The position numbers and the translations under genes were made by a program. A stretch of 61,112 bases of DNA, filler included, from Kipferlia bialata (lineage: Eukaryota): NCBI GenBank assembly GCA_003568945.1. It is 4 parts of 4 records of this genome, joined end to end, with 100 filler letters (N's around TTAATTAATTAA, not from the genome) between each part and the next. Parts side by side here need not be neighbours in the genome. Positions count along the whole stretch, not along the records: positions 30,626 to 45,826 come from BDIP01000729.1; 3 more parts are not named here. One strand, 5' to 3'. Positions within the stretch are counted from its first letter, which is position 1. Every line of letters begins with the position of its first letter. The notes below the pieces were generated by a model. The model saw nothing but the letters and a program-made list of their open reading frames with translations. It was not told the origin of the DNA and did no database searches. This document shows, one piece after another, positions 12 to 48,900 of the stretch.

Positions 12-54
<43 letters not shown>

Positions 55-4832: not shown

Positions 4833-13753
<8,921 letters not shown>

Positions 13754-15161: not shown

Positions 15162-15213
<52 letters not shown>

Positions 15214-18762: not shown

Positions 18763-19373
18763 TCACACACACTGCCTGAGGTACTCGTCGTTGACATCTA
18801 GCAGATAGCACGTCGTCACAGACTCCTCTGACCCCTCAAAGTACTCCAGAGGGCTGGGGTGTTAGACTATATATACATATCCTACATACACACAAGCGGG
18901 TACATACATATACACATGTATGATAATGCTGGATCCTCAAAGTACTCGAGTAGAATTCACTACTCAACATATATGTATACTCCATGTATACTGATTCATG
19001 AAATGCAGCAGTATATGAATTGTGATGTAAATCTTGTATATCAATATCTACGTACCACCCCCCCAGCTCACGGTGCCAGGACACGACGAGGAGCACGTAT
19101 TCTGGAGTGAGAATCCATACATATGTATATATATGTGTGTGCCCACCTATATGCGTGTATCCCATATATTGCATATAAGTACCTCCCACTCTGCATGATG
19201 CATAGTGGCACCCATGTCCTCATCAAGGACATTCATTAGTATATATATATAGATGTATATATATATGTGTGTACATGTATATGCATACACACTGTGTATA
19301 ATTCTCCCACTCTACATGATGCGTAGTGGCACCTATGTCCGTCCACATCAAGGCTATTCATTAATTAACACAC

Positions 19374-19404
<31 letters not shown>

Positions 19405-21032: not shown

Positions 21033-21080
<48 letters not shown>

Positions 21081-21177
21081 CCTATATATAATAATAATAT
21101 ATATTATTATACCATATACTATACTATACTCTTACCCTCTCTGCACCCCCATTCCATACAGGGCGTGTCTGTAGTAG

Positions 21178-21211
<34 letters not shown>

Positions 21212-21281
21212 ATCTACTGTATACTATACTATAGCGTACCCTCTCTGCACCCCCATTCCATACAGGGTGTGTCTGTAGTAG

Positions 21282-21315
<34 letters not shown>

Positions 21316-24285
21316 ATCTACTGTATACTATACTATAGCGTACCCTCCCTGCACCCCCATCCCATACAGGGTGTGTCTGTAGTAGTCTCTCTCTCTCTCT
21401 CTCCCCATATATATGTATATATATAATAGTATGCTAGTATATATACATGTACTCTCACCCTCTCTGTACCCCCATCCCATACAGCGTGTGTCTGTAGTAA
21501 TCTCTCTCTCTCTCCCCCCCCCTATATATATGTATATATATAATAGTATGCTAGTATATACGTATGTGCTCTCACCCTCTCTGCACCCCCATTCCATACA
21601 GGGTGTGTCTGTAGTAATCATCGTGGGGTGCGTTGTCTGCAATTGGGTGGACGGGGGGGTTGGCAACACGCTGGGTCAGAATTATGTATAAAGAATATAC
21701 ATACATTGTATCATCGAATATAAATATGTATACTATAGGGGGGTTGGCAACACGCTGTGTCAGAATAATTAGATAACTATATATAGATACTTTAATATAT
21801 ATGCATCATTGGGGTCGCTGCGTGAGTGTCCAAGATATGTTACATTTACAGAAGAACTATGTGTACATATACATATACATATGTATACCATGTCTCACCT
21901 TCCATTTCCCTGTCTCTGTGTTGTAGATCCATGCCTGCAGGGGCTTCCACTTGGACACAGTGAAGGGACCTACGACCAGGAGGAACTAGAGTTAGAATAT
22001 TAAGTAAATATTACTTACTAAAACATACAGTAAATACTATGTATACAGGCAATGGTTACAAAAATGTATATACCACTACCATGTGACAAGAAGGAACTGG
22101 GGTGAGAGAGACAACTGGAGACAAATCAAGAATGTAGACGGGGACAGTCTATGGTATGCTTTACATGCTTAGAACACATATGTTACAAATTTGTGGACTT
22201 GAGTCTTCACCACAAGGCACTAGAGAGAGAGATGGAGATAGAGAGGGGGATTGAAATATGGACACTGTTCATATATATACAGTTACCAAATGTATATATG
22301 TAAACCCTCCTACCTCTGTGTCTGACACACCTATGCCCTGGGGTATATATACCTATACATACATACAATATATACACTATATATACTATACTATGTATGC
22401 ATACATAAACCCACCTCCGTGTCTGACACAGCCACCATCCCTCTGGGGTACCTGACACTGGGGGCACCGGCCTGAGGAGTGAGGATAATATATATGCTAT
22501 ATACATATACTAGATATATATAGTATAGCATATATGATATACTATTAAATAGTGTATAAGTCTCGGGTACCTGACACTGGGGGCATCGCCCTGAGGGGTG
22601 AGGTTATAATAGAATATAGTCACACATATAGTGTATATATAGTATATAGTAATCAATCGTGTATATATCTGGGGTACCTGACACTGGGGGCGTCGCCCTG
22701 AGAGGTTAGGGTACTAAGTAATATAGGCACTCACATATACTATATATATATAGTAGAGTATATATAGTATATACTAATTAATCGGGTATATGTCTGGTAC
22801 CTGACACTGGGGGCGTCGCCCTGAGGGGTGAGGGTACTAAGTAATCATATATGTATATATATATAGTATAATATATATGATATACTATTAAATAGTGTAT
22901 ATGTCAGGTACCTGACACTGGGGGCGTCGCCCTAAAGGTGAGGGTGATAGATATATTATATACACATTCATACATATATACACTTGTGTACATACCTAAA
23001 GCTCTATTCTCTCCTGTCCATTGTCCCGTTGCCATTGAGTACACATACGTACACTATTGTATGATATATGCTATCTACACACCTATAACTCTATCTTGTC
23101 ACACCACTCCCCCCTTGCCATCGAGTACACATGTAGGACAGAGAAAGCCTATAATTACTATATATTTCAAACCTAACATATACCTATATGTATTCATACT
23201 AATACCTCTAGTGTAATCCTATCACACCACTCCCCTCTTGCCATGGAGTACACGTGCAGGGCAGAACATATATATACTACACACTATAGTATATACCTCT
23301 NNNNNNNNNTGCAGGGCAGAACATATATATACTACACACTATAGTATATACCTCTAGTGATATCGTGTCTGTCCATTGTCCTGTGGCCAGTGAGTACACG
23401 TGTAGGGCAGGGGTATCAAGGCCCTCCGGCTCAGGGTTGGGCTCTTGTCTGTCCCTTGTGTTATAATAGTATATTGTAGTTAATAATAGTACATATACTA
23501 CTCTGTGTATATATGCAGGGCAGATGTAAAAACGCCCTCGGGATCCTCGGCGTATTCCTCGTTTCTGGTGTTATATATATGCATATGGGAAATTGCAAAA
23601 TTGAAATATATTTAGTATATATATAATAGTATATATATAACATACAGTAGTAATAAATTATAGTATATAACAGTATACATACCACTGTCTAAACTGGGCC
23701 AGATCCTCCTCTGCCAGCTCAGCCTCGTCAATATCAGACAGCTGAGGGTAAGAAGTATGGAATATATATACACACACACATTATATATGTATGAATAGAG
23801 AGAGGGAGGAAATCCTCTGCCAGCTCGTCAACGGCAGACAGCTAGGGTAAGGTATAAATATATATATATATATATACATTCATATATAAAAATAGACAGG
23901 AGAGAGAGACAGAGAGAGAGTATGGGTGCTTCAACGAATCATCCTCATCTTGGATAGCACTGGACTCTCTCAATCATCCATATATATACATATATATGCT
24001 TACCTCATCCTCGCAGCACTTGACGGGCCTGCCACTGGCGTACACATACACCTTGCCCCCCATACACACACCTGGGGTGACTATAGATTAATAGGTAAAT
24101 TACATCTACATATATACACTTGTACATCTATATATACAAATAATCACTTACCGCATGCCACGCCCTTGTAGGGCACCTCTATCATGGCAGACTCTAGCCT
24201 AGGGGGTGCAGACTCATCAGCCTCGTCATGCACTGGGATGAGTATACATATATACATATGTGTATATAATGTATACTAAAATATG

Positions 24286-24316
<31 letters not shown>

Positions 24317-24628
24317 TCATCAGCCTCGTCATGCACTGGGGGTGAGTATCAATATATACTAAACTTCAGATATGTGTATATAGGATATTCATATACCTAG
24401 TGACTGTTGATGCCTGGGGTATGTGTCATCTGTAGGCCTCTCTCTCTCTCTCTCTCTATCCATATATATAAATATGTGTGTGTTTGTGTATGTATACATA
24501 CTTATATACCTAGTATGACGGTAGATGCCTGGGGTATGTGTCCAGCTGTAGGCCAGCCCCCCTTGAAGCCCAGGAGCATGCAGGTGTTGGCACCAGTCTG
24601 CACACAGCTGGGGTTAGATATGTATATG

Positions 24629-24662
<34 letters not shown>

Positions 24663-24738
24663 GACATATAGACAGAGAGAGAGAGACTTAAGTGTTGGCA
24701 CCAGTCTGCACACAGCTGGGGTTAGGTGTGTATATATG

Positions 24739-24769
<31 letters not shown>

Positions 24770-27700
24770 TGGGAGAGAGAGAATGTGAAAGAGAGAGATC
24801 TATTTCGGCAGAGATACCGTAAATGTACTCGCATGAAACATATGCTCATATACAAAAACATATATAATGTATGTACGTACTCGTATGTGTGAAACGGCCG
24901 GGAAACAGTGAGCTGTCGGCGCTGAGGGTAAGGGGGAGAGAGACAGAGATAGGGGGAGAGAGGCCACTGGCAGTTACGCATATATAAGTATATCCACCAC
25001 ATACCTCTATCACCCTGCCGGCCAGTGGCAGGTAGGAGACAAGGTCTGGGTCGGCCATCAGACGGGACCTCACACCGTTGATGGCAACTGGGGTAAGGAT
25101 AGATAGATATATACTTATACTTTATCCATATACAACATTCCACATACTAACATATACTAATAATACATGTATACACACCTGAAACCTGTGGGTCCATATA
25201 TATACAAATATACATATATGTGTATGAGTGTACACATGTACAATCAATTTTCATGTATAGATACAAACCTGCAACCTCTGGGTCCACAGTGTTCCTCTCC
25301 CTGGTCCCTGGGGGTCAGACGGCATGATATAGTATACATACATACATATATACATACATATATCATCATGATTGAATGAATATACACACACATGTCTAGA
25401 CAGAGTGTGCCTCTCCCTGGTCCCTGGGGGTCAGACTACATGACTCTGTATACACACATACATACATCATCATGACTTTTAGGACCCACACACAAATATA
25501 CGTAAAGAATAGTCCCAATGTACTAGTGTACAATGCAGTATATCAATATACAATATACCTAGGAGTGACGGTATCATACATACTATTATATATATATTTA
25601 TATAAATATACTATTAAATATATATTTGTATATATGCATCAATATATATATATATCAACAATGTATACAATATACCTAGGAGTGAGGGTATCATGCCAGC
25701 CTCGGCCATGTCCCTCAGACCACAGTGCTCACCAGACCTGTATGTTATAATATATAGTTATAATATAGTATATGAACAATAGTATACTATATATCATAAT
25801 ATATGATAATATGGTAATTATATACAATAAGTATATACAATAATAGTATAATAAGTATATACATGTAAGTATATACAATAATAGTATAATTAGTATATAC
25901 ATGTAAGTATATACAATAATAGTATAATTATAATAATACTACATTGTATATGTGTTATACGAGGTGCTCTCCAGACCTGAATGTCAGACATAAACAATAT
26001 AGATTCCATATATATTACGAATGTATATAATATGTATTACACCAAATGGATAATTTATGTATCAGTATAAACTAATGGTCAGACCGAGTTGCTCAGACCT
26101 GTAATGTTAGAAACACATATATACATAATGGGCCATTATACTAACACAAGACCTACAGTATCCACGTGTCTGTAAGTGTGTGAAATTGTTTACTGATTAG
26201 TATCTCGCTGCATGTACCTGATCTTACTGTACTCGAGCAGGGCGTAGATGGCGTTGATCCCCACATATTGCACGTGGGATACGGCCTCTAGAACAGGAAG
26301 AGTGGCCTTGACTGCGAGATAGTCAGCCTCTGGCACCTCTCTCTCTCCCTCTCTCTCCCCCTCACTAAGGGAGAGCATAATCTTGATGACCTTGTGCACT
26401 AGCTGGCTCACAATCACATCCCTATGGTTATATACATATACACACATATATAGATATATATATACACAATATTTATACTATATATACAATACATACTATA
26501 TATATACTATATATAGTAGTTGGNNNNNNNNNNNNNNNNNNNNNNNNNNNNNNNNNNNNNNCTATATATAGTAGTTGGTGACCTTGTGCACAAGTTGGCT
26601 CACAATCACATCCCTAGGGTGAGACTGTGTGTGTATAGAGTGTATGTTATTATGTAGACAGTGTAGACAGAGAGAGAGAGAGAGAGAGAGAGGGTAGATG
26701 GGCAAGCTGGCTCACAATCACACACTATAGATATAGTATATACAATCCACACTATATACTATATACTATATACTATACACACTCCATATAATATATTAAT
26801 ATTCGCTATACTGATGCATGCGACTGTTTAGCAGCACGGTCAGACACCAGTTAACACTACTAACTAAATATACACATATACTATATACATATATCGTATC
26901 CTATCGTATCGTATCGTATCTAATTCACATACCACCGTGGAGCGGCACGGTCTGACTCCAGTATGGCCTGGAAGAGTGGGGTGCACTGTATGTGGGTGGG
27001 TGGACTCATCTACTATTAATCTATATATATATACATATATATATATATATAATATATATATATTCTAAAATATGTATATTAATCCATATATACTATAATA
27101 TATATATATATATACCGGTATTCGGTTGTGTGGACTCATCTACTAAATGTATAAACCATAATATATATATATATACCTGTATGTTGATAGGTGCGGTGAG
27201 TGATGGGTTCTTCTCAAGTGCCTCGACCACTGTACATGCAAGGCTGATGGACCCATTCACTAGGGTGAGTATAGATAGATACATACACATATATATGTAT
27301 ATTAATATGAATATATAGGGTGACTGTTTTTTCAATTATTTTTTTTAATTCTCTTTCCTAGGGTTGATGGACTCATCTATTAATCTACTATACTATACTA
27401 TACTATACTATACTATATACATATGTATATACCTATGTCTAGATCGGTCGAGCCTGAGACCAATGGAGCAAGACGAGAGTACAGCCCTGCCTGGGGGATG
27501 AGTGTGTATAAATATATATATATATATATATACATATCAGTCTGGAACATGAGTGTTCACACATACGTATATATTCATTTATATATATATTCATCAAGAG
27601 TACAGCTGGGGCATGAGAGTGTGTATGTACATAAGTATATATATATGTGTATATATATATATATGTGTATACATATGTACATAAGTATATATATATGTAT

Positions 27701-29398
27701 GTGTCTGGTACATGAGTATGTATATTTGTATATATACGTATATATACATATACATACATATGTCTATGTATTTATATATCTAAGCATGTACACATATATA
27801 TACATATACATATGTATACATATGTATATGAGCATTGGACGCTGTGTAGCATTGGGGCTCCTATATTCTATACATATACATAGTATGGTAAAACTACATA
27901 TACACTATGGGGGCTTATGTATACTATGATGGTCAATATACATACCTCTGTGAGATGTGGCACTGCATTGTGGTTCCTGAACGCTGTTCATATATATACA
28001 TATACTATAATGGTATGCAAGTACTACAATGGTCCGTATATACAACATATTAACTATATATACTATATATATACATATATACCTCTATGAGCAGTGGTAC
28101 TGCATAGTGCTCATTCACAGATATACTTCTATCTATTTTTGTACAATAATGGTCTCTAAATACTACAATGGTGGGTAAATATATACAATATATATAGAAT
28201 ATATCTACATAAATATCTACCTCTATGAGCAGTGGTATACTACAATGGTAAAGGTAAATATATACAATATCTATACAATATATACTATATGCATGTATAT
28301 ATATGTACCTCTATATACTATATACATGTATATATATACCTCTATGAGCAGTGGTGCTACACTGTTGTTCCTCCACGCTACGGAACTGAGCAGGGAGAGG
28401 GTAGCCCTGAGGTGAGATAACAAATGTATATACATATATAGTGGAAATAGAGATATACATAAATGCATGTGTCATAGTGTCACGTGTTGAATCATAAACA
28501 TATACTAGTATTTATATGGTCACTATATGTAATTAGTATACATGTACATGCATACTTGAGCGTGTCTGCTCTGTCCATACATGTCAGCATATAGGCCTAC
28601 ATATAGAGAGCTTCACAATATATCATATACCCACTGCTTATACGCATTAGAACCTACCTGCATGTGTCTGCCCTGTCCATATATGTCAGTACAACATATA
28701 AATACAGTATATATACAATATATATATATTATATGTATACAATATATATACAATATATATAAAAACTATATATATATACAATATATACACACATACATGT
28801 ATATCGATACCTGCATGTGTCTGCCCTGTCCATACATGTCACACATAAACAATAAGTATGCATATATATAATGTATATATAACTATATATATCAATATAT
28901 AATATATATTAATATTGAACCTACCTGCATGTGTCTGCCCTGTCCATACATGTCAGCAGCAGGTCAATTAGCTCAGGGTCGCTGAAAGGTAAGGGAACAC
29001 ACATGCACATATATATACATACATTATATACCAGATATATATGTATATATACACATATCAAATCAGCAGGTCAATTAGCTCAGGGTCGCTGGATGTAAGA
29101 TATAGTAGTATAAATACATACAAGCCACACTTGTGTACATATATACATACACATACATATATATATAAATATACAAGAACCAGGGCATAACAGTTCAGGG
29201 TCTCTGGAAGGGAAAGGGAAAACTGATACACGATATGTACTTTGTATTGATATACTATATATAGTATATTGAACATACCATAATACCACACATACCATAT
29301 ATATATTGTTTATATATGACTTGACTTCACACACATATATACATATATATATATAAATAATATATACCTCCATGTCCGCGGGAGGAAACTCTGTACGG

Positions 29399-29435
<37 letters not shown>

Positions 29436-29840
29436 ATAGGCATATATACACATATATATATATATACCTCCAAATAGGTGCTTGGCTGAGCATGGCAGAC
29501 AGTGCCTGTATGGCATCTACTGGGGTGTGGGCAGAGGCAGAGGTGCCAGATAGGATGGCCTGGTAATATTAGAAGGCATAAATATATATACACACACACA
29601 CACACACATATATATATAATAATATGTATCTATATATATATATAGAGAGTATATGTGGACAGAGGCAGATGTGCCAGATAGGATGGCCTGGTTGTCAGTA
29701 TATATATATACTATATATACAATAGTATGATACACACATATATATACATATACATATATGTATAGTATGTGGGCAGAGGCAGAGGTACCAGATAGGATGG
29801 CCTGGGGTTATTAATGACATGTATTCACACATATATATAT

Positions 29841-29874
<34 letters not shown>

Positions 29875-30238
29875 TGTGTGTGTGTGTGTCCTCAGTGGTA
29901 GAGGTGCCAGATAGGAGGGCCTGGGGGCTGTATATACATATGCATATATATATATATATCAGTGTGTATACATGTGAAGAGAGAGAGTACCTTGCACTCA
30001 GCCAGAGATATACACATATAGTATACATACACATAGTGTATATATACAGTATAGAGAGAGAGGGAGAGGGGGAGAGAGGGAGTAGCTTGCACTCAGCCAG
30101 AGGGATGTCTGGAGATACATACATATGGTAAATACACTATATATATACATATATATATATATATGATTATGTACATACAGTAGAGCAGTACCTTACACTC
30201 AGCCAGAGGGATGACTGGACCGTTGGGGCGGTTCATGC
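18763..30238 (-). CDS. Large multi-exon protein with an N-terminal ARM/HEAT-like helical region and a C-terminal Kelch-type beta-propeller; 5' end possibly incomplete
   Basis: Hand-joined exons: DPELIDLLLTCMDRADTCRATLSLLSSVAWRNNSVAPLLIEAGLYSRLAPLVSG (ARM-like), then GVCMGGKVYVY, LHVYSLATGQW, MVAVSDTEFLLVVG, QAWIYNTETGKWKRVANPP, TVHLLG, IAAYDACSG, ending CYLLDVNDEYLRQCV*. Confidence 0.7.
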
Positions 30239-30525: not shown

Positions 30526-30625
30526 NNNNNNNNNNNNNNNNNNNNNNNNNNNNNNNNNNNNNNNNNNNNTTAATTAATTAANNNNNNNNNNNNNNNNNNN
30601 NNNNNNNNNNNNNNNNNNNNNNNNN
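30526..30625. other. Artificial contig spacer N44-TTAATTAATTAA-N44
   Basis: Same 100-nt linker; TTAATTAATTAA at 30570-30581. Confidence 0.97.
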
Positions 30626-33034: not shown

Positions 33035-33066
<32 letters not shown>

Positions 33067-34350: not shown

Positions 34351-34700
34351 CTGTGTTTGGCCCCTCTCTCTCTTTCTATATATATATATATAAGTAGCAT
34401 CTATATATAAGTACAAATATGCCTGTGTGGCTGTGTGTGACTCCGTCCACATCTCTCTGACACATGTGTCACATAGTTTATATGTATATATATATAGAGA
34501 GATAGAGAGAGAGAAGTGGTCGCGGGGGTGCAGTCCCACCCCCACTGTGCCCCAATCTTAGTCAGAGACACAGTCTTTGCTACATATACTCTGATACAAA
34601 CACATTTATGGATAACAGTGTTATCATAACATGGACCGCGGCATAAGGTCGATCCTCTCCGGAGATGGAGAACGAAGGTCACTCTATGACTACCGTGAAC

Positions 34701-34748
<48 letters not shown>

Positions 34749-34757
34749 GCTACACCC

Positions 34758-35209
34758 TTAAGTGTCCAGCTGGCAGAGGAGAGCCGTTCCCTGCTTCGTG
34801 AAGAAGGAGGGGTCCTGGAGTGAGATATGTGGATGTATAGAATACTATTATCTATTACTGTCCTAGCTATCTGTATGTGCATATGAATGTGTACTTTCCG
34901 TATATTAATGCGTACGTGAGAGAGACGGGAGAGAGGGAGACATAGAGAGAGAGAGGGAGTACCTGTGCCGTCGGGATGTCCACTGGCATGATGTGGTTGG
35001 TGGATCTACCCGTGGTAGACAGAACACCAGCCCTGGAGGTAAGAATAGAGCATACATCATGTGTGAACATACAAATCCCTAAGTATACATACTGCGCCAC
35101 TCTCCCTGAAGTATCTTCATACTCATACAAACTGATATGTATATATGTATATCCATGCCATCCTACCTGAAGCTAGTCTTGTACAGTGGTGCCTCGTAGT
35201 CTGATACAC

Positions 35210-35257
<48 letters not shown>

Positions 35258-36080
35258 TGTATATATTACATATGCATATAACATCATATATACATGTGTC
35301 TCTCACCTAAAGCTTGTCTTGTAGAGTGGTGCCTCGTAGTCTGAGTCGTCTCTCTCCCAGTTGGGCACTGGGGTGAGGGAGGATATATACAATATATATA
35401 TATACATATAGTAACAAATCATTACTAGACCATATTAGTAGTATGAGTCGTCTCTCTCCCAGTTGGGCACTGGGGTTAGCATGGATACAGTGACATTCCT
35501 AGTATATACAGTATACTTAAAATATAGTGGTGCAATACAATACAATATCCCTATCCCAGTTGGGGACTGGGGTTAGTATCTTACATAGTATGTGGAGAGC
35601 ACTCGTTATCTACAGCAGAATACAAGTCTATGCATACACCCATACCTGGCAAGAAGTGCACGATGGGCAGACGTGGGAACAGCATGCGCTGTCTGGCCTG
35701 AACGAGCTGCATCCTAGACATTAGAAGCTATCGCGTAATTAGACAATGAAACATAGTTAACGTGTAGAATAAGGGGTATCATCGGATTAAGAGACCTCTT
35801 CGCCTGATAAGTCATTGGAATAAGTATATCGCGTAGAGTAGTGCCAATACCTGTCTGGATCGAAGTATGCCCCGTCCAGGTACAGACCCACTCTCATATA
35901 TTGAATATATACATACACACACACACATATATAAATATAAAAATATCCCAACATATATACGAGATTCGTTACCTGTCTGGATCGAAGTATGCCCCATCCA
36001 GGTACAGACCGTGGATCAGCACACCCTCAGACACGCACTCGTCGGGGGTGAGGTCCTCGGGCTCGGTCTAGTATTAGAGG

Positions 36081-36114
<34 letters not shown>

Positions 36115-36180
36115 CTCAGACACACACTCATCAGGTGTAAGGTCCTCGGGTTCGGTCTAAGGGTTAGAGGTATATATATG

Positions 36181-36212
<32 letters not shown>

Positions 36213-36265
36213 CTCAGACACACACTCATCGGGGTTCGGTCTAAGGGTTAGAGGTATATTTATAC

Positions 36266-36306
<41 letters not shown>

Positions 36307-36659
36307 CTCAGTCACACACTCATCGGGTGTAAGGTCCTCGGGTTCGGTCTAGGGGTTAGACACACAGAGCAATGAATGGTGGTGTATATAGTGTGCATAT
36401 ACCTTGTGGGTGAACATGAATCTGAATGCCAGGACATCGATGGGTACAAGGACCAAGTAAATTAAATTAATACTTATACACATACTATATACATATCCCT
36501 TACTGCATATAATATTACTTATATATATATAGACAAAGATATTTACCTTATGGGTGAACATGAATCTGAATGCCAGGACATCGATGGGTACAGAGTGGGA
36601 CCTGGCATAGGTCTGGAGGACACCCGTGATGAAACCCTGGCTATTAGGGGTGTAGAGGG

Positions 36660-36691
<32 letters not shown>

Positions 36692-36886
36692 GCCTGGGGG
36701 AAAAAGAACCCGCTCAGCCAGTATGACTCCGGTCTGCCCTTCTGCAGCCAGGAGCGCATGAACTCAACCCTGGGGTTAGTATATGTATGTATATAAATAT
36801 ATATATAGATACAGAGAGGGCATGTACCTCAGGATGAGGTCTGCGAACCAGCTGGACAGAGACAGGTATATATACATACATAATAG

Positions 36887-36923
<37 letters not shown>

Positions 36924-36991
36924 GGCATGTACCTCAGGATGAGGTCTGCGAACCAGCTGGACAGTGACACGTACATATACATACATAATAG

Positions 36992-37036
<45 letters not shown>

Positions 37037-38009
37037 TGTACCTCAGGATGAGGTCTGCGAACCAGCTGGACAGGGGCTTGAGAGAGGGGTAGGCAGCGGC
37101 AGTCCACATGTCAGGGACCTGGGGTGAGTATAAACATATCAATACAATATATATATATATATACAAGTACTATTGTATATATGTATATCAATGTATATGG
37201 GTAGTCCACATGTCAGGGACCTGGAGTGAGCATAGTGATAAATAAAATAGGGATAGGGTAGTGATATATGATACAGACGAAAACTACTGTGATATTTGGA
37301 GTGACTAATCTATGTATAAAAGGCAGTCTCCTACCTGCCCGATGAAGCATGCCCTGAACACAGACTCCAGCTGGGCACTCATGACAACTAGACCCTGGAC
37401 GTAAGTGGTATATGACTATATACTACTATTTATAGGTATTTATGATATATATATACATATATTAATATATACTTATACATATATGAAGCTTGGGCACTCA
37501 TGACAACTAGACCCTGGGGGTAAGCGGTACATATGTGCGTAGTAATGAACACTAATGAATGTAACATTGAGGACCAACCTTGATACCGGATCTGAGGTCT
37601 GCCAGGGATGACTTGAGGACAGAGAAGCATACATTAAGTATTATATTATATATATATATATATAACATGTATATTACATGTATCTATGTATACCTTGATA
37701 CCGGATCTGAGGTCTGCCAGGGAAGACTTGAGGACAGAGAGGAGGTTGTTGAACCTCTGGACCTGAAATAAGGGTCTAGGTGGAGAGAGAGAGAGAGAGA
37801 GAGGAGGTTGTTGAACCTCTGGACCTGGAGGGTTAGAGAGGGATACACACACACACATATATATATATATATAATAGTATATATGTAATAGTACATATAT
37901 ACCTCCTGCTTCAGTACGACAGCCAGAGAGTGGATCAGTCCAGACTCCAGAGGCTCAAAGAGACCCTCGAGGGCAGTGTCCATGTCAAGCTGGTGTAAAA
38001 AGGGTGTAG

Positions 38010-38053
<44 letters not shown>

Positions 38054-39055
38054 TACACATAGATATATACTATACAAAATAGTCAGAAAGAGAGAGTATA
38101 AACATACCTGCTCGGGCAGTCTCTGCAGCAGGTCGGCAGCTATCCTATCTACAATGGTGTCCTCAGTGTCTGCAGTGGACACAGTCAGGATGCCATAGTC
38201 GCCATCCTCTCTCTCCTGGTGTAAAAAGGGGGGTATGGAGAGAGAGTATAGATGTATGTGTATATACCTCCTCGGGGACTTGTCTCTTCGCCTTAGCAGC
38301 CTGCTTCTCTGCCACAGCTGCTGCCTCTCCCTCTCCCTCTCCCTCTGCCTCTGTCTCTGTCTCTGCCTCAGTGGTGAGGGGCTCTGGCTCGACATAGGCC
38401 TGGAGGGTAAGAACATTAGTGTAATGTGGATGCATATATATGAGGGTGGAGGACAATTGTACAGGACTATATATACCTCGATGGCCGTTGGCTGGATGTT
38501 GAGGACATCTCTGATGACACGGGCACCCTCTCTCTCCCTGGGATCAGAGGAGTAAGTATACATAGACACATATAGTATATACGTATATAGGGTATATACC
38601 TGTACACGAGTGATGAGTTGTCGTGCATGCCAAACACCTCAGGCTCCTCGGACATGGGAAGGGTCTCCACATAGGTCCTGAGGGGTTAGATATATATATA
38701 TATCTGTATCTATATATATATAGAGAGAGAGAGAAAGAGAGAGAGAGATGGGGAGGGTCTCCACATAGGTCCTAGAGGGGTTAGATTAGTAACTATACAT
38801 AGAGAGAGAGAGAGAGATCGATACCTCATGTCAGCCAGGCTGCTTGTGCCATCTGCACAGACATAGTAGATGCCACTATCAGACAGGGGGCAGTCATCAA
38901 CGTCGATGGCCCTGGGGGGTGAGGTATACATAGATAGATATATATATATATATATTCATATACATAGAGAGAGAGAGGGGGGGAACGACAGAGACAAGGT
39001 AGTCATCAACGTCGATGGCCCTGGGGGGTGAGATATGAATATATATAGAGAGAGA

Positions 39056-39095
<40 letters not shown>

Positions 39096-39531
39096 AAGGC
39101 AGTCATCAACGTCAATGGCCCTGGGGGTGAGTGGTGTTGTTATGTACATTCATTGATATATAAGCCCAGGAGGATAGGAACATGTATATCCATATATATA
39201 TAGTTCATCTACATTAAGTAGAATACCTCGAGTCGAAGTACTTGGCCAGCACCGTGTTGAGTAGACGCCTGTCCCAGTCGTCAGTCACTCTGGGGGGTAA
39301 GAGTACACACACATATTTATACTATACACACATATATATATATATACATGATATAGTACATATGTCTGTCCCAGTCGTCAGTCACTCTAGGGGTTAGCCA
39401 TACTGATAACTATATAGAGGTCTAATACACTATTGACCACGTACCTTCCACCGTAGTTGACCTCTGCAATCACATAGCGCAGGGCCTCCCAGGGGATCTG
39501 CTCCTGAAGTGTGAATGAAGGGGGTAGAGTT

Positions 39532-39566
<35 letters not shown>

Positions 39567-42305
39567 GATAGAGAGAGACAATATACCTGCTCCTCTAGGA
39601 ACATTCTCAGTGTCCTCTGTGATACTTCAAAGTCACTGTCGGTGAACTCGTAGGGGATGTTAAACCCATGGGGGCCAAACTTACGCCTCTCCTGACGGTT
39701 AAATTGCAATTCATTCTGTCCAAGTATCGTAAAAATGTCAATACTTACCTGCACAATGGCGTGGAAGAATGCCAGGCTGAAGAGATGTTAGAATATAAAA
39801 TATATATTTTAGTATATTATATAATACCTATATATATATATTAGTATATATATATAATACCTGCACAATTGCGTGGAAGAACGCCAGGCTGAAGAGGAGT
39901 CTCATGGTTAAGTCAATAATTACTGTCCCATTATCGTAAAAATGTCAATAATTACTGTCCCATTATCGTAAAAATGTCAATAATTCTTACCTGCACAATG
40001 GCGTGGAAGAATGCCAGGCTGAAGAGGAGTCTCTTCCAGGGCTCTGGCTTAGAACATCCAGCGAAGTCGGAGTCGTGGAACTCGGTGAATGTCCTTGTGG
40101 TAAGATACAGCGTGAGACAATACACGACATCTACTCTCCATGAGAGAGAGAGAGAGAGAGACTCACCTTGTGAGGTTGGCCTTGAGTCCTCTGGGGGGCT
40201 CGGTGGTCATCTTGACACTGTTCTGGGGTTAGAACAGGTATATGTAAGTGTATACATATATAGACAGAGAGAGAGAGAGATATCAGTCATTTTGACACTA
40301 TTCTAGGGTAAGTAAGAGTATTGTAGAGGGGGAGAGTACTCGATGTGATCATCGCCCTTCGTCAAACATATATATATATATATATATGATATATATAGGG
40401 GATATCAACGCAGCAGTATATATCAAATAATAATGAAGCAACACAGTATATGTAAGGAAGAGAGAGAGAGAGACATGCATGAGGTGTACCTGCAGGACCG
40501 AGATTGGGAATGCCTTGGAGGGCATGGAGGATAGCCACAGCCTGAAGGTAAGGAGATACACATACATACAAAGACATATATATACTACACATATACTATA
40601 TATACTATACAATGCCTTGGAGGGCATGGAGGAGAGCCACAGCCTGGGGGGTTAGTCTATATACGAATACAAACAGAAGGATATAGCATATCTGGTTACC
40701 TGAAGTTCTTGTGTGGGGGTATGGTCAGGTTGGGGTCTGCCTCTGCCTTCCCAGATGCCAGGGCCTCGACATGCCTCTCAAGAGAAGACATCCATGACGC
40801 TGCAAGGTGACAGTTCTTATGTAAGAGGGAAATAGGGGGAGAGAGAGAGAGAGAGAGAGATAGACCGTTACCTGGAGGAAGAGCCAGTTTCCGTCTCTGG
40901 TGGCTCTCTGCATGAGCTTGTAGGCCACAGGACCCTGGCCTAGGGGTGAGGCTAGACCATACATTGTACATTACACACGCACACACACAATCTCTTTGTT
41001 CATTATGCACATACGCTGTCCCAGTGACACCACGTGCATCTACACACAAATCTCTCTCTCAATATATATTGGTATAAAAAAATATACAAATATATATTAC
41101 TATACATACCCTGTCACAGTAACATGTGCATCTACACATAGATCTCTCTCTCTCTCTATCTATACATATACATATATATATAATACTATACATACCCTGT
41201 CCCAGTGACACCATGTGCAGCTGTGTGTCTGGCTGCTGGTTGCAGAAGGCCTGAGGTAAGTATATACATTCAAACAAGTATATGTAGCTCTATCTATTTA
41301 TATATATATGTATCATACACGTGCACATACCTGCAGCTGTGACAGGGGGTCTACACTAGCACTAATTCAGCAGTATAGATAGATACAGGATTGTATAATT
41401 CATATACTATGGATCTATACATACATACATGAAAACTTATAGATTATGCATACCTGCAGCTGTGACAGGGGGTCTGCCCCAGTGCTGAGGATGAAGACTC
41501 TCTCTCTCTCTCAATATATATATATATATATATATATATTATGCACATATATCATACCTGTAACTGCGACAGGGGGTCTGCTCCAGTGCTGAGGATGAAG
41601 ATGAGGGGGCTGGAGGGGCTGGAGTCCTTAAGTTAGCAGTAGGAGAGAGAGAGAGAAAGATAGATAGAGAGAGAGAGAGAGAGGAAGATGAGGGGGCTGG
41701 AGGGGCTGGAGTCCTAGGGTGAGGGAAGAGAGAGAGAGAGAGAGATGAAGGGAGCGCCAGGTTTCTGTACAAAACCATATGTAAAATGAGAGAGAGAGAG
41801 AGAGAGCGTACCTTGAATGCGTCGTCCAGGACCAGGGGTGGGGGCTCGGTGAACCTTCTGTCGAGCTCAGACTCAATGTAGGTGGGGAGGGAGCTAGAAG
41901 TGAGTGGTATTCATATACAGTATAGAGAGTGGGGCCGGTATGTGGCATATATTGTTTAATGCAGTGAATGAGATGAAGTTGACAAGACAAAGCAGTGTAT
42001 TACTATCTACATGATATACATCGGATACGTACCCTGCCAGTCTATGGGGTGCCAGTATCCTCACTAGCATGACACACTGGAAGGGGGACAGGGGGGTGGG
42101 GGGCGGGGTGCCAACAGGGTCATCTGGGGTGAGAGGCAAAACATGTATATATATCCACTATACACCAATGTACATATATAGTATACATACCTCCCTCCAC
42201 CCACTGCGTCCACTCCCTCATGTGTGTGGCCATGTGTACATAGGCATCATACAGAGAGGGCACGTCAAGGACCTAGGGTAAGACACACACACACACACAT
42301 ATATG

Positions 42306-42338
<33 letters not shown>

Positions 42339-44752
42339 GGCACGTCAAGGACCTAGAAAGTTAGAGCGCGACACCTATGTATGTGTGTATATAATACAAG
42401 TGCGAATATGCATACCTCCAGTGCACATATCATTGTCCACTGCTGTGTGCTGAGACCAGAGCCAGAGGGGATGGGGGGGAGGGACTGGCCTGGATATAAG
42501 AGGGGATATATATATAGAGAGAGAGAGGGAGAAAGAGAGAGAGAGGGATAGGACGAGAGAGGAGGGACTGGCCTATGGTAAGGTACCATAACTCACACAT
42601 CTATGTAGATAAATGCAGCACCCGTACCCTTCAGGACCTGCTCAGCTGACACAAAGCCACGGAGGAAGAGGTCCCACTCGTTGGCCTGGGGGTTAGTTTC
42701 ATACACACATACATACACATTCATTTAAGTAGATAGATAGAGAGGTACCTGGGACATACGCGCCCTCTGCAGTATCCTGCTGATACACTCTAGTACTATA
42801 CACCGGTATATATACAATAGTATTGAATAAGTTGAACTATACACTATATCCCACCTGGATCTTTCCGGCTCTCTGCAGTATCCTGCTGACAATCAGGAAC
42901 GAGAAGGTCTGCTTGTCCCTCTCAAAGAGACCTCTGAGGGGTGAGAGTATTAAGAGTGTAGAGAGAGAGAGAGAGAGAGAGAGTCTTCCGTACCTGCACA
43001 CGTTGCTGAACACGGAGTGTGTGATGACGTCTAGGAGGGTGGCAAGCCTGAAGGTGAATAGAGGGTGTAGAGGGAGAGAGAGTGTGTGTGTGTGAGAGGA
43101 TTTAAGGGAGTAGGGAGAGAGAGAGAGAGAGACAGAGAGGGAATGTGTGTGCGAGGATATAAGGGTGTAGGGAGAGAGAGAGAGAGAGATACCTGATGGA
43201 CAGGTCGTCGTTGGGTGCGGATGTCCTGATGCAGGACTCATAGAGAGAGGTGAAGTAGGACAGGGAGAACTGGTACATAGGGTCCTGGAAATAAGGGGAG
43301 AGAGGGAGAGATAGAGCTGAAGTGTAAATGCAAAGAATATAGAAGACTAAGGGTCAAAAGATATACACATATATGAGGTAGAGATACCTGGCTGGCGAGG
43401 CTGGACACAGCGAAGTAGAGCAGGGACCCTCTCACAGCAGCAGGGATGTACTGGTTGCAGGCAGTGGCAATCTCCTAAGAACGTTAGAAATAATGTTCTA
43501 TATTACAAATATAGGAACACTTTACAACCTTTTAAGATGAAATGAATACTTTATATACTTGCATTACCCTAGCCTGTGCCACCCTCTCACTGATGCCCTT
43601 CTCACTCTCTCTCTCTCTCTACATATATATATGTATATACACTATATATGCCCCTACCTTTGCCATAACCTCTGCCTGTGCCACTCTCTCACTGATACCC
43701 TACTCTCTCTCCCTCCCTATACATATATATATACATATATATATATATACACTATATACCTTAGCCATAACCTCTGCCTGTGCCACCCTCTCACTGATGC
43801 TCTGGGATGTCTTCTTGGACTCTGTCAGGGTGTTGATCAACACCTCGTTATCAAGCACATTGCCCTCGGCCTTGGACAGCTCCTGAACGGTTAGACGCTC
43901 AGACGCTCAGACGCATAATGAATGACGACTGATCCACTCTCCCTCTCTACATATTCATAAACAAATACATCATACCTGCAGGATCTTGTCCTCAAGGGCC
44001 TTGAGCTGGGCTCTGTCCTCAGCCATCTGGGGGTGAGACTAGATATATACATGTGTAGTATAATAATACTCTATGAATCAAAGATCCATTGGGCTGGGCT
44101 CAGCCATCAGTGATGATGACTATACAGCCATGCATGTCCACACAGTACCTGCAGAATGAGCTTGGACCGGGTCTCCTCGAGGTCTGGCCTCTCAATGCCA
44201 ACGACGGACTGGGAGTGAGACAAGGAAAGAGAGAGAGTGTGTGTGTGTGTGAGAGAGAGAGAAAGAGAGAGAGAGAACTCCATACCTGCAGCAGCTGCTC
44301 CTCCAGTCCAGGGGTGGTGACAGTCATGTTGATGATACAGAGCTTGACCTGGGGGTGAGGAAGGATTACAGTGCGGGTAGTATACTATAAATGAATATAT
44401 CAGTATGCTTGAAACACTCTGGGCTCCAGTATGAGACACGGTACACTACTACAATACACACAAACATACATAGAAGAATATATATTACTTAGATATACAC
44501 CCTATATCCATTACCTGTGTCTCTGGGCTCCAGTATGGGTTGGCCAGCTTAGATGTCATGTAGAACCTGGGGGTGAGGAGGGGGAGGGGGGGTACAATAG
44601 AGAAATAGACTCATCAATATCCATATGTACTATATAGATACTGTATCTACCCACCTGAATGAGGGGTCGAACTCAATCTCCGAGTCTCCGAGTCTGATCA
44701 TGGTCCTGCCATTGACCTGGAAGGTCTGCCTGAGGTGTAAGAATAAGGGGTC

Positions 44753-44794
<42 letters not shown>

Positions 44795-45082
44795 CGTACC
44801 TTGTGAGGAGAGGGTCCAGGGCTGGGTTGATGTGCTCACCCACATTCTCAACAAGCACAGGGAAGCCTAAGTGTGTAAGTACAGGGTTGAATACATATAT
44901 ACACATATGTAGAAACCACCATTCTCCACAAGCACAGGGAAGCCTAGGAGGTAAGAATAGTTTATAGTATATACACCTAATGAATATCTGTGGCATCCAC
45001 ATACCTAGTCTGATTGCGTTCTCGAGTGCCCTGAGGAAGGTGGGCTGGGATGGACGGAGGACAACCTAGGGTGAGGTATATC

Positions 45083-45118
<36 letters not shown>

Positions 45119-45826
45119 ATATATATATATAGAGAGAGAGGGATTAAACAGTCCCCGTACCAGGTTGTTAGCTGCCTCTCCGTTCTTGATCCACTTGATG
45201 ACTTGTAGACACAAAGCAAGACACTCTAACTATTGTATCCATCAATGCATATTAATATACTCACCAGGTTGTTAGCGGCCTCTCTGTTCTTGATCCACTT
45301 GATGACACAAAGACCCAATGCAACTATAGATATATATTATACTATAAAATGTAAGTTGAAATATCAATATGAAACATTAACTCACCAGGTTGTTTGCTGC
45401 CTCTCTGTTCTTGATCCACTTGATGGCCTGGGCCTGGGGGTCGATGATCAGGGGCCATCTGGGGTCAGGGTACATACTTATATATGAATATATATAACTG
45501 TAGATACACATAGGGAGAGTGAGAGAGAGTACCCATACCTGTTAGACTGTGTGCACACAATGGCGTTGTCAATGGACACACTGTCAGCGGGGAGACCATC
45601 AAGCTGGAACTGCCTAAGGGTTAGATCAATAAAAAGTGTAGAGAGAGAGAGAGAGAGAGAGAGACACTGTCAGCAGGGAGGCCATCAAGCTGGAACTGTC
45701 TGAAGGTGTTAGAGAGATTGAAAGAGAGAGTAAGGGTATTACATGTATCATGTATTACTAATTCACACATCATACCTGACTGTGACGTCATCCACCAGGG
45801 TGTTCTTGAGACTGAACTCATCGGAC
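34758..45826 (-). CDS. DNAH6: Axonemal inner-arm dynein heavy chain (DNAH6-like), AAA5 to C-terminus; 5' part missing
   Basis: RWPLIIDPQAQAIKWIKN, GLEEQLL, RGSLLYF, PLIFILSTGADP, SLGQGQGP, GNWLFLQNCHLA, FRLWLSS, ERRKFGPHGFNIPYEF, NYGGRVTDDWDRR, AYPSLKPLSSW, YWLSGFFFPQGFITGVLQ, RAGVLSTTGRSTN, ending GTALLCQLDT*. The paralog assignment is from memory of the family. Confidence 0.93.
36637..36693 (-). other. GC-AG intron (57 nt) in the dynein gene
   Basis: FFPQ|GCAAGT...CTAATAGCCAG|GFITG restores the conserved GFFFPQGF motif. Confidence 0.8.
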
Positions 45827-45926: not shown

Positions 45927-48900
45927 CGATCCTCTCGACCACAACGAGACGTACTAGCCATTATACTATCCCAGCGACGTATTTTTTGTATCTGGCTTGC
46001 AGCAATGGGTACTGTTCTTAGTATATATTCTGACCTCAGACCACCTAGTCACCCTCCTGACGTGTGTGGGTGGCATGGAGGCAGAGTGTGTGCAGGCCAT
46101 GAAGGTATATATGTATATATGGTATATATACATATATGTATGCAATATTTTTATATACACATACATGAATGTTTATGGGGATGGTGGAAGAGGGTGTTCA
46201 GGCCATGGCGGTATACATGTTCCATTTGTATACTCTTTATTTCGAGTCCTGATCTTCTCTCTCTCTCTCTCTCTCTCCCTAGACCCTTATATCAGGTTCT
46301 TGACTCTGCTGTCTCTCTCTCTGCCTCTGTCGAGTCCTGTCTGTCAGTGGAGAGGTGCCTGAGGGTCACTGACTTCATGACTCAACCTGGGTGAGTATAG
46401 AAGTATGAGTATTTTGGTATACATACATACATATATACATATATTCTGTCTGGCAGATTCACTGAATATACACTAACCCCAGCCCAGCCATGAACGGTCT
46501 ATACGCTGCCGATGACTCTGTGAGTGACATGGCCATGAGGCTGTTCAAGGAGTGTGTTCGGATAGGTAAGTATAGTGTATGTATACAATATACATCGTCT
46601 AGTAGTGGATAGTGAGATATCAGCTCTTTCGTCTTCGTACTCACTCTATGTATATTCTTCTCTGTCTCTCTGTCTCTCTCTCTCCCTGACCCTTCAGGCA
46701 GATCCCAGCTGGCCCCACACATATGGAGTATACACCTATATAGAGTATATACCTATCTATCGATACATTAGCAAATGATTACATACATCTTCATACATCC
46801 CTCACCCTTCAGGTAGATCCCAGCTGGCCCCACCCGAGGCCACCCAGAGTCAGACACTCACTCAGGTACATCTATCATTCATATATATGTCTAAAGTATA
46901 TATAACATATCACACATTTGCATAGTGATTATGATGTGATACGTACCCGCACCATGTATTGTATGAATGTTTAGTTACACAATATGCACGTGTATTCAAC
47001 TATCTCCCTCAATATGTATATATTTATATATATATTTTATACATATATATATATATATAAACAAGTGTCTAACCCCAGTCCACCCCCACCCCCGAGATCA
47101 CTGAGGAAGAGAGGGAGAGAGAGAGGGAGAAGGAGGTAAGAGACACTGTTTAAGAGAGATACAACATATATGAATATCAATAGATATATATTGACCCACC
47201 CCAGGCCCGTGAGGCAGCTGCCCTCGAGAAACAGGAGCAGAAGGAGAGAGAGAGAGAGAGAGTCAGGGCCGAGAAGGCAGCAGTGTGGGAGAGGGAGAGA
47301 GAGGCAGAGAGAGCTAGGGAGGAGGTAAGAACAATCAATATAGCACCTCTAATTGGTTTTCCGATTGATTTCCGATTGATTTTCCGATTAGTTTTCTGAC
47401 TAACCCCCTTAGGCTGAGCGCATTGAGAGAGAGAGAGAGATTGCCGAGGAGGAGCAGGCAGAGCTTACAAAGAGGGTGCGATCACTAATGTGATGACTTA
47501 TGACACTAATCTAATATCTTCTCTTCCTAGTCTAATGTTTTAGGTCCGTCCGATGTACCCTTCCCTCTCCTCCGAGACTGAGAGGGAGAGAGAGAGAGAG
47601 ACCAAGCCCAAGGCCAAGGGCAAGGGAATGACACTGGGAGGGGCCCACAAGAAGAATGTATGTGTATGTATATGCATATATATACATTCTTGAATGTATA
47701 TATATATAGCCTAACTCTCGGTCCCAGCCTTCGTTAAGCCTCCTCTCTCTCTCTCTCTCTCTCCCTACACCCCTAATCGCAGTCCAAGTCCAAGCCCTCT
47801 TCCAAGCCAAAGGCAAACTTTTGTATTAAATAGTATTACAGTATATAGTATTGTATTGTATTGTATTGTACTCATTTCATTCAAACACTAACTCTCAGTC
47901 CAAGTCCAAGCCCTCCGCCAAGCCAAAGGTACAGCCTAAGCCAGTGGTGCACATGACTCATGAGGAGAAGGTATATAGACTATATGTATATAGTAGTGAG
48001 AGAAAGAGAGAGGAATAGTATTTATAGTGTTAGTGAGAGAGAGAGGCATGAGGCCCGTGGTGCACATGACTCAGGAGGAGAAGGTATATAGACTATATAT
48101 ATATACTATATACATGTGTATATACATGGAGAGAGAGAGAGAGATTGAGAGAGAGAGGCCAAGCCTGTGGTGCACATGACACAGGAGGAGAAGGTGTATA
48201 TATAGGCTATATATCTATACATTGAGACAATGTAATCTCTCTCTAAACATATATGCTTACCCTAGGCAGCTGAGTCCTTTGACTGGGACTCCCTAGGGGA
48301 TGTACCCTCCCCAGACACCAAGAAGGAGAGAGAGGTATATATATACACCATATACATATATATGTATATATATATGTATGTATATACAGTTATATGTATC
48401 ATATATGATACTATACATTCCCCAGACACCAAGAAGGAGAGGGAGATTGAGGTATATATATACACTATACACATATATATATATATGTATATACATATAT
48501 ATATACAGTTATATGTATGATATATGATACTATACGCTCCCTAGACACCAAGAAGGAGAGGGAGGTATATATATATACATATACACTATATATATATATG
48601 TATATACAGATATATGTATCATATATGATACTATACCCTCCCCAGACACTAAGAGGGAGAGGGAGAGGGAGATTGAGGTAAGAGTGTGTGAGAGAGAAAG
48701 GCTGAAGGAGAGAGAGAGAGTCTCATGTGGTGGCATATAATCCTGTAAATATTCTGACACCTAGGCAAGAGAGGCTGAGAGGGAGAGACTGGAGCAGCAG
48801 GCCAGGGAGCCAGACGCAGTGGAGAGGGAGGCGTCTGACTCCCTGGCCTATGACGATGTGTACGACAGGGAGATTGACATCGGAGGTACACTGAATATAC

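What the first reader, a model, noticed from the sequence alone, without database searches (positions are those of the whole stretch)
36026..36347. Intronic half-exon 'echoes' keep the amino-acid sequence: differences from the real exon are mostly synonymous
Seen by hand alignment. The dynein exon start at 36026-36067 (ACC GAG CCC GAG GAC CTC ACC CCC GAC GAG TGC GTG TCT GAG) versus its intronic echo at 36115-36156 (ACC GAA CCC GAG GAC CTT ACA CCT GAT GAG TGT GTG TCT GAG) shows 6 changes, all synonymous. Other pairs: 41558-41599 vs 41454-41495 (4 changes, all synonymous, including TTA/CTG Leu); 35307-35344 vs 35167-35204 (3/3); ~45575-45613 vs ~45661-45699 (all synonymous); ~39990 vs ~39860 (2/2); CHD ~9149-9171 vs ~9228-9250 (2/2). 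Each echo has only one splice site and ends in microsatellite, so canonical splicing should not translate it, and neutral decay should mostly give non-synonymous changes. Inference: something exposes echoes to protein-level selection. Options are recurrent recombination or conversion that swaps echo and exon, DNA- or RNA-level deletion between the direct repeats, former mutually exclusive exons, or recent capture of strongly diverged alleles. Counter-examples exist (a frameshifted echo at ~36213-36240 and some non-synonymous changes).
Basis: partly seen in the sequence, partly recalled or inferred. Interest (0 to 1): 0.92.

Follow-up and report, generated by a model that had tools for sequence, protein, structure and literature searches.

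The report
Untranslated half-exon copies keep protein code
In this intron-rich genome, likely a protist's, half of the exons examined have partial copies of themselves in the neighbouring introns that the main transcript skips where tested, yet these copies keep the amino-acid sequence and a full-strength splice signal, likely because recombination keeps swapping them with the coding exon.

Summary
Real, window-wide and not explained by the ordinary null. 66 of 133 curated exons have 140 intronic half-copies (control 2 hits in 526). Upstream copies carry the acceptor, downstream copies the donor; none is a whole exon. Echo/exon differences are 124 synonymous to 80 non-synonymous (pN/pS 0.20; dynein 28:2, 0.02). 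This beats context-matched neutrality and also the null in which only the working exon is selected (expected 83-86; dynein 12-16). The scan saw similar echoes in sea urchins, where that null sufficed; here it fails, except in one gene. Echo acceptors score like real ones although most intron flanks no longer align, synonymous divergence (~0.19) does not depend on flank likeness, and copies are mosaics. In one 3-kb stretch RNA contigs used only real exons, and DNA contigs showed echoes in cis at single-copy depth. Best reading (0.5, inferred): recombination inside the shared exon part swaps echo and exon halves in a very diverse, outcrossing population. A toy model needs allelic silent diversity of about 0.15-0.25, which is untested; this strain showed no variants. 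Organism not established.

The parts
35973..36067 (-). Real dynein heavy chain exon (95 nt, Dynein_C region)
   Evidence: Used by RNA contig 9 of run X2 with 0 other letters and a GT-AG joint on its 3' side; Pfam PF18199 E=0.0016; open frame
36115..36156 (-). 5' echo 1: acceptor plus first 42 nt of the exon, 6 synonymous differences
   Evidence: not itself covered by listed DNA contigs (repeat skipped)
36213..36240 (-). 5' echo 2 with a 14-nt deletion, 2 synonymous differences in the aligned part
36307..36348 (-). 5' echo 3: 5 synonymous and 1 non-synonymous (Ser/Thr, near the free end)
   Evidence: DNA contig 36320-36436 at depth 421
36068..36114 (-). Spacer: (TC)n(TA)n run plus the real branch point and acceptor; like spacers follow echoes 2 and 3
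   Evidence: sequence
36349..36402 (-). 54-nt GT..AG segment between the 3' echo of the upstream exon and 5' echo 3; looks like a complete intron
36403..36448 (-). 3' echo of exon 36547-36636 with its own donor, 1 synonymous difference
   Evidence: one DNA contig (36407-36580, depth 506) spans echo, intron and exon in cis
36547..36636 (-). Real upstream dynein exon
   Evidence: RNA contig 9; PF18199 E=1.7e-6
35851..35888 (-). 3' echo of exon 35973-36067 with donor, 1 synonymous difference
   Evidence: on DNA contig 35447-35898, depth 415
34758..45613 (-). Dynein heavy chain, C-terminal 1139 aa, 45 exons, 33 echoes at 20 exons
   Evidence: 38% identity over 1165 columns to P0108
6619..13753 (+). 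SNF2/CHD-like helicase gene, 27 curated exons, 6 echoes
18763..30238 (-). Gene B (weak Kelch match in one exon), 26 exons, 41 echoes
46040..52818 (+). Gene D (curated in two parts, 18 exons), 26 echoes; array at 48974-49552 shares a 9-nt in-frame deletion
53559..60942 (-). Gene E (unnamed), 17 exons, 34 echoes; five-copy array at 54542-55089

Best explanation
The echoes are half-exon tandem copies, each with one splice signal, that likely keep the protein code because recombination inside the 20-60 shared bases repeatedly swaps them with the coding exon. Shown: the layout (acceptor half upstream, donor half downstream, about 110 nt period), the synonymous excess, full-strength echo acceptors, unrelated intron flanks, mosaic copies, and skipping by the main transcript in one stretch. 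Inferred: short duplications with one break in an exon and one in an intron are the only ones splicing tolerates, since a copy with one splice site is ignored. A crossover, deletion or conversion between echo and exon, on the same or the homologous chromosome, then puts the echo half and its splice site into the coding position and copies coding alleles into echo positions. Selection removes products that change the protein or lose the splice site, while silent variants from a diverse allele pool circulate. Exchange stops where homology stops, so intron flanks drift apart. Echoes that escape exchange decay.
For: pN/pS 0.20 (family bootstrap 0.13-0.27), dynein 0.02 (0-0.065). One-sided-selection null rejected overall and in dynein, E and D2; that null run through the same finder gives 0.39-0.49. 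The ratio follows the host gene (dynein versus the rest p=3e-5). Echo acceptors score like real ones (median 7.8 versus 7.9; branch motif 49 of 55 versus 126 of 133 real and 139 of 1399 decoy AGs), though 75 of 118 flanks match their own real flank no better than the best of 12 unrelated ones. pS is 0.17-0.20 in all three flank-score classes and uncorrelated with flank score or pN. Echo-echo fourfold divergence 0.22 is like echo-exon 0.19. 10 of 13 informative site pairs in 3 arrays show all four combinations. Synonymous changes are not polarised towards rare codons (69:55, against 74-77% under one-way drift). A toy model gives pS 0.12-0.26 with ratio 0.08-0.12 when allelic diversity is 0.11-0.25 and exchange is fast.
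Against: No exchange product was observed. The model needs allelic silent diversity near 0.15-0.25 and outcrossing; without outcrossing the toy ratio stayed at 0.4 or more in the settings near the observed pS, and at low diversity pS fell to 0.02-0.03. DNA and RNA contigs of this sample showed no variant letters in the 3 kb laid. The toy model never reached the dynein ratio of 0.02 (lowest about 0.07). The predicted rise of amino-acid changes towards the free end is significant with a 6-nt trim (p=0.025) but not with 8 or 10. Gene B alone does not reject the one-sided null (p 0.08-0.10). Four-gamete patterns can also come from recurrent mutation. Simple conversion would not by itself preserve branch points in unrelated flanks; that needs crossover or deletion products.
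Confidence: 0.5

Rival explanations
1. One-off capture of diverged alleles: each echo is half of a formerly coding allele, left behind by an illegitimate exchange between homologues; it is short-lived and unselected once in place.
For: Explains the gene-specific ratio, strong splice signals, symmetric codon changes and a constant pS floor without selection in place; non-synonymous counts are overdispersed and distal copies carry more (pN 0.054 versus 0.028), as decay would give.
Against: Echo and flank would share one history, yet echoes identical to the exon over 32-41 nt have flanks that do not align (e.g. 59812-59852, 60367-60398), while 16 units with alignable flanks show 10% flank mismatch (a set chosen for likeness) and pS 0.18. 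It needs the same untested diversity, and echo lifetimes near 1-2% of allele age (dynein zero-fold sites 1 of 531, fourfold 22 of 124).
Confidence: 0.22
2. Echoes are translated in minor transcripts, through an internal AG|GT splice (Rogers type), template switching or another non-canonical join to the rest of the exon.
For: Needs no high diversity. Sites reachable through a matching AG|GY have a lower ratio than others (0.09 versus 0.20, p=0.02). Contigs drop minor forms, so cannot exclude it.
Against: Using the echo site as a plain alternative site is in frame and stop-free in 10 of 113 cases. The 1037-nt RNA contig has no echo base in the eight listed pieces. pS should rise with age but does not.
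Confidence: 0.1
3. Frequent somatic or programmed DNA deletion between echo and exon (echoes as repair patches for breaks in fragile introns) exposes them every generation.
For: Explains the kept acceptors and codons together; NHEJ is reported absent and homologous repair central in metamonads (PMC8516963, passages), if the organism is one.
Against: No joint skipping a unit was listed in DNA contigs at about 400-fold depth (contigs drop rare forms). Frequent deletion should leave mostly young units with alignable flanks, but most do not align.
Confidence: 0.08
4. Ordinary dead duplicates: only the exon is selected, and CpG or GC-to-AT bias makes up the rest.
For: Sufficient for gene B alone; CpG changes are frequent at synonymous sites (16 of 48); 2 stops and 8 frame-breaking indels occur in echoes; all six focal changes run GC to AT.
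Against: Rejected overall and in dynein under trinucleotide-matched nulls and by simulation; CpG sites where the change alters the protein changed in 1 of 59; the result holds for trims of 0-10 nt and two score cut-offs (0.14-0.25).
Confidence: 0.04
5. Assembly artefact (co-assembled alleles or homeologues), or remains of mutually exclusive exons.
For: Short-read style scaffolds with gaps and microsatellites; echoes 36115-36240 are not covered by listed contigs.
Against: Single contigs span echo and exon in cis (36407-36580, 35345-35473) and echo and exon contigs have like depth (415-506 versus 425); a more distant dynein-like sequence was picked up as a loose end but no near-identical second copy was. 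No whole-exon copy among 140.
Confidence: 0.06

Closest known systems
Tandem repeats spanning an exon-intron border (human F7 intron 7 VNTR, named in scan notes e1-7787398 and e1-9861148, paper not read; sea-urchin junction echoes of those notes)
   Same: Head-to-tail copies of an exon end with its splice site inside the adjacent intron, skipped by splicing.
   Different: There the copies are described as dead, with a silent excess that exon-only selection explains; here that null fails, half of the exons are affected, and both donor and acceptor sides occur.
Silent-cassette gene conversion (Borrelia vls, Neisseria pilS/pilE; PMC4534519, passages read)
   Same: Unexpressed partial gene copies that recombine into the expressed copy through short shared stretches.
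   Different: Those serve antigen variation at one locus and change the protein; echoes sit in introns of housekeeping genes, keep the protein unchanged, and no dedicated machinery or direction is known.
Concerted evolution of partial duplicates by ectopic conversion (PMC3449122, passages read)
   Same: Homologous parts kept alike while non-homologous flanks diverge.
   Different: Here the units are 20-60 nt, intronic and untranslated; conversion alone does not lower pN/pS without outcrossing and diversity.
Intron gain by tandem duplication of an AG|GT segment (Rogers model; ATP2A1, PMC3265369, abstract read)
   Same: Short intragenic tandem duplication made harmless by splicing.
   Different: There both breaks lie in the exon and a new intron results; here one break lies in an intron, no new intron is made, and 96 of 140 echoes lack a matching AG|GY.
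Exon-focused crossing-over in hypervariable Schizophyllum commune (PMC4209137 and PMC4576712, abstracts read)
   Same: Shows that synonymous diversity of 0.13-0.20 exists and that crossovers then favour exons, the conditions the best explanation needs.
   Different: Allelic crossovers in a fungus; the abstracts mention no half-exon copies, and such diversity is not shown for this organism.

Membership tests
Dead exon-junction tandem repeat | Copy includes one splice site and part of the exon, in the adjacent intron | tested here: met
   55 of 57 upstream echoes start at the acceptor, 75 of 83 downstream echoes end at the donor
Dead exon-junction tandem repeat | Copy evolves neutrally (pN/pS about 0.45 or more against the exon) | tested here: not met
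   0.20 overall, 0.02 in dynein; null 0.39-0.49; gene B alone is compatible
Mutually exclusive / duplicated exons | Whole exon copy with both splice sites | tested here: not met
   0 of 140; largest covered fraction 0.75
Mutually exclusive / duplicated exons | Copy appears in mRNA | tested here: inconclusive
   Not in the one RNA contig laid on 3 kb; contigs drop minor forms
Rogers-type intron gain | AG|GT inside the duplicated stretch at matching positions | tested here: not met
   Present in 44 of 140 only
Alternative 5'/3' splice sites | Use of the second site gives an open frame | tested here: not met
   10 of 113 in frame and stop-free
Silent-cassette conversion / concerted evolution | Mosaic sequence among copies | tested here: met
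   10 of 13 site pairs with four combinations, 3 arrays; recurrent mutation not excluded
Silent-cassette conversion / concerted evolution | Shared part homogeneous while flanks diverge | tested here: met
   pS independent of flank likeness; 75 of 118 flanks unalignable
Silent-cassette conversion / concerted evolution | Recombinant products observed between cells, progeny or isolates | not testable with these tools
   One sample, contigs only; no relatives found
Silent-cassette conversion / concerted evolution | Diversifying function at a dedicated expression locus | tested here: not met
   Protein is conserved, and echoes occur in all five genes modelled

The most novel reading that the evidence does not exclude
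The genome runs a general system of spare exon halves: intronic copies with their own splice sites are routinely recombined into the coding position, at DNA level during break repair or at RNA level by a non-canonical join, often enough that selection maintains them without extreme population diversity. Splice junctions and intron ends would then be replaced continually.
Probability: 0.15. Interest if true: 0.93.

Novelty: new variant of a known kind. Interest (0 to 1): 0.76.

Why it matters
It is a case of protein-level and splice-site constraint on sequence that the main transcript skips, across ordinary genes: echoes make up 4433 of 31192 intron bases here. If the exchange reading holds, one inbred genome carries a record of its species' allele pool, from which silent diversity and gene-wise constraint can be read, and it predicts diversity near the highest reported for eukaryotes. 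It also offers a route for fast turnover of intron ends and splice sites, makes selection on non-coding duplicates through recombination directly testable, and warns that gene finders will mis-splice such genomes (an unconstrained finder took echo pieces as exons).

Tried and rejected
No whole genome is held, so all counts come from this window. No run on record as RNA was listed; X2 is a guessed RNA run, and both runs are contigs of one sample that may be the window's own source. Reads could be laid on 34400-37400 only; the rest of the dynein gene is unchecked against reads. Searches for relatives found nothing: proteins, metagenome contigs; no second allele could be compared. Non-synonymous differences are not more conservative than chance (BLOSUM p=0.30) and stops are not depleted (2 versus 3.6). 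A gradient of amino-acid changes towards the free end did not survive longer trims. A 7-12 nt overlap of upstream and downstream echoes in 7 of 18 two-sided exons (post-hoc p=1.5e-4) suggested insertion of a new exon into the old one, but several overlaps are alignment overshoot; not adopted. Down- and up-echoes share an intron no more than chance (14 versus 12.2). A single common age for all echoes is disfavoured (dispersion 1.04 versus 0.80, p=0.008), and so are exponential ages (1.62, p<0.001). A loose end at 37073 that looked like an extra variant is the mixed consensus of two known echoes (by reading). Literature searches for the phenomenon listed no paper describing it; the library lacks most subscription papers and no supplements were opened.

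Full report
Setting. The window is four pieces joined by N runs around a 12-nt linker at 15214-15313, 30526-30625 and 45827-45926. No whole genome is held. I modelled five genes by hand after a first automatic parse: a SNF2/CHD-like helicase, gene B, a dynein heavy chain, gene D (two parts, one low-complexity stretch left out) and gene E, 133 exons in all. Each gives an open frame with AG/GY borders (the first D2 exon was then moved by one base). Pfam and blastp support dynein and the helicase. For one exon of gene E the echo helped me choose the frame, which phase continuity then confirmed. Introns are short (median 90 nt without echoes) with the branch motif fused to the acceptor (126 of 133). 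From recall this suggests an intron-rich free-living fornicate such as Kipferlia; I did not test that. The passages read of that genome's paper and of a metamonad intron paper (PMC5874029; PMC6679479) do not mention such copies.

Observation. A local-alignment search of every exon against its two flanking introns found 140 echoes in 84 families at 66 of 133 exons; 526 exon/non-adjacent-intron pairs gave 2 hits. 55 of 57 upstream echoes start at the exon's first bases (AG kept in 53) and 75 of 83 downstream echoes run to its end (GT in 63). Median length is 31 nt, the period to the nearest echo 81-146 nt (10th-90th percentile), and none covers more than 75% of its exon. All four pieces carry echoes (6, 41, 33, 60). 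Only 36 of 140 end at a dinucleotide run of 8 nt or more, though those overlap the run more than chance (p=0.016).

Reads. In 34400-37400 one RNA contig (run X2, a guessed RNA run) uses eight listed real-exon pieces with no other letter and five listed GT-AG joints. DNA contigs span echo plus exon in cis (36407-36580, 35345-35473), and echo-bearing and exon contigs have like depth (415, 421, 506 versus 425). No variant letters were listed in either run. Echoes 36115-36240 were not covered. Contigs drop rare forms, and both runs are one sample.

Synonymous excess. With 6 nt trimmed from each free end and shared changes counted once, there are 124 synonymous and 80 non-synonymous differences, pN/pS 0.20 (family bootstrap 0.13-0.27). 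Five neutral nulls matched for base, CpG or trinucleotide expect 54-61 synonymous. By gene: dynein 28:2 (0.02), CHD 3:2, D2 23:12 (0.15), E 32:19 (0.19), B 37:39 (0.33). The proper null for a dead copy is one-sided: the exon still gathers silent changes. I had noted this, and a scan note on a sea urchin uses it to explain a like pattern. Here it expects 83-86 overall and 12-16 in dynein, against 124 and 28; E and D2 reject it, B does not. Simulated one-sided data passed through the same finder give 0.39-0.49. Trims of 0-10 nt and two score cut-offs give 0.14-0.25; dynein has 11, 4, 2 and 1 non-synonymous differences at trims 0, 3, 6 and 10, so most lie at free ends. A lower threshold adds decayed copies (dynein 41:7 per echo, control 11 of 526). 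A test without gene models agrees.

Clues to mechanism. (1) The ratio follows the gene (p=3e-5), which decay alone would not do. (2) Echo acceptors are as strong as real ones; echo donors are slightly weaker (p=0.02). A donor-like GT[AG] right after an upstream echo is scarce (5 of 57, against 15 of 57 further on and 36% in introns), as expected if a second site would turn the echo into an exon, though composition may contribute. (3) Of 118 anchored echoes without N, 75 have intron flanks no closer to their own real flank than the best of 12 unrelated flanks, yet pS is 0.19, 0.17 and 0.20 from most to least alignable class. Exon part and flank therefore have different histories. (4) pS is uncorrelated with pN; pN is strongly overdispersed, and pS mildly. 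(5) Arrays are mosaics (10 of 13 pairs) and echo-echo differences are also mostly silent (fourfold 0.22, zero-fold 0.057). Variants private to one echo are less filtered (41:38) than shared ones (33:9; p=0.006). (6) Silent changes show little direction (GC to AT 55, reverse 39; commoner codon in exon 69, in echo 55). (7) Some echoes are broken: 2 stops and 8 frame-breaking indels among 11 distinct indels, so echoes are not constitutively coding.

Explanation. The layout follows from survival: a short duplication is tolerated only if it carries one splice site (inference). The constraint is best explained by recombination within the shared bases, which places the echo half and its splice site in the coding position and refills echoes from coding alleles (inference). 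A toy population model (few replicates) shows the price: exchange in a clonal line gives ratios of about 0.4 or more; ratios of 0.08-0.12 with pS 0.12-0.26 arise only with fast exchange (200-400 times the mutation rate), outcrossing or exchange between homologues, and allelic silent diversity of 0.11-0.25. Such diversity is known in Schizophyllum, where crossovers favour exons (abstracts), but this sample shows no variants where checked, and the model did not reach 0.02. Metamonads are reported to lack NHEJ and lean on homologous repair (passages), which would help if the organism is one. One-off allele capture is the nearest rival and may be the same process at another time scale. RNA-level use and per-generation deletion remain open because only contigs were available.

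Novelty. Junction-spanning repeats, silent cassettes and concerted evolution are known. Eight literature searches listed nothing on half-exon copies under protein-level constraint, within a library that lacks most subscription papers. The scan holds two notes on sea-urchin junction echoes, judged dead copies, and none on this genome or sequence. I rate it a new variant of a known kind: the pattern is solid, the mechanism inferred.

Noticed in passing
window 15214-15313, 30526-30625, 45827-45926: N runs around a 12-nt all-frame-stop linker: the window is four joined scaffolds, so neighbouring genes across these points are not neighbours.
   Followed up: yes
window 53401-53560, 52873-52893, 18682-18708: Echoes of the last exon's end, stop codon included, lie in 3' untranslated regions, where no donor is involved.
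   Followed up: partly
window 17270-17483 and 17486-17701: A 216-nt tandem unit in a Kelch-repeat gene holds an exon end, a spacer and an older echo (nested echo); 190 identities, 20 mismatches.
   Followed up: partly
window 48974-49552: Four echoes share a 9-nt in-frame deletion against exon 48765-48885 and differ from it only at synonymous sites.
   Followed up: partly
18 exons with echoes on both sides, e.g. 59644-59729, 51582-51626, 35307-35367: Upstream and downstream halves overlap by 7-12 nt in 7 of 18; partly alignment overshoot, worth a genome-wide test for split-exon insertion.
   Followed up: partly
window 36694-36769 and 11217-11288: Exons modelled with GC donors.
   Followed up: no
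window 37091 (loose end in both runs): A contig matches part of the dynein exon and continues with other sequence that reads like another dynein heavy chain.
   Followed up: no
window 34758-45613: 44 introns in about 3.4 kb of dynein coding sequence (about 13 per kb); phases over all genes 56:28:43, with phase 2 above phase 1.
   Followed up: no
window 1-15213: The GC-richer piece (54%) has few echoes (6 at 27 exons) compared with the three AT-richer pieces.
   Followed up: no
window 47194-47326: An exon of gene D reads with a frame break inside a GA run, possibly a collapsed microsatellite; left out of the models.
   Followed up: no
window 31567-31827, 32880-33470: Further short direct repeats outside the five modelled genes; frames not determined.
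   Followed up: no
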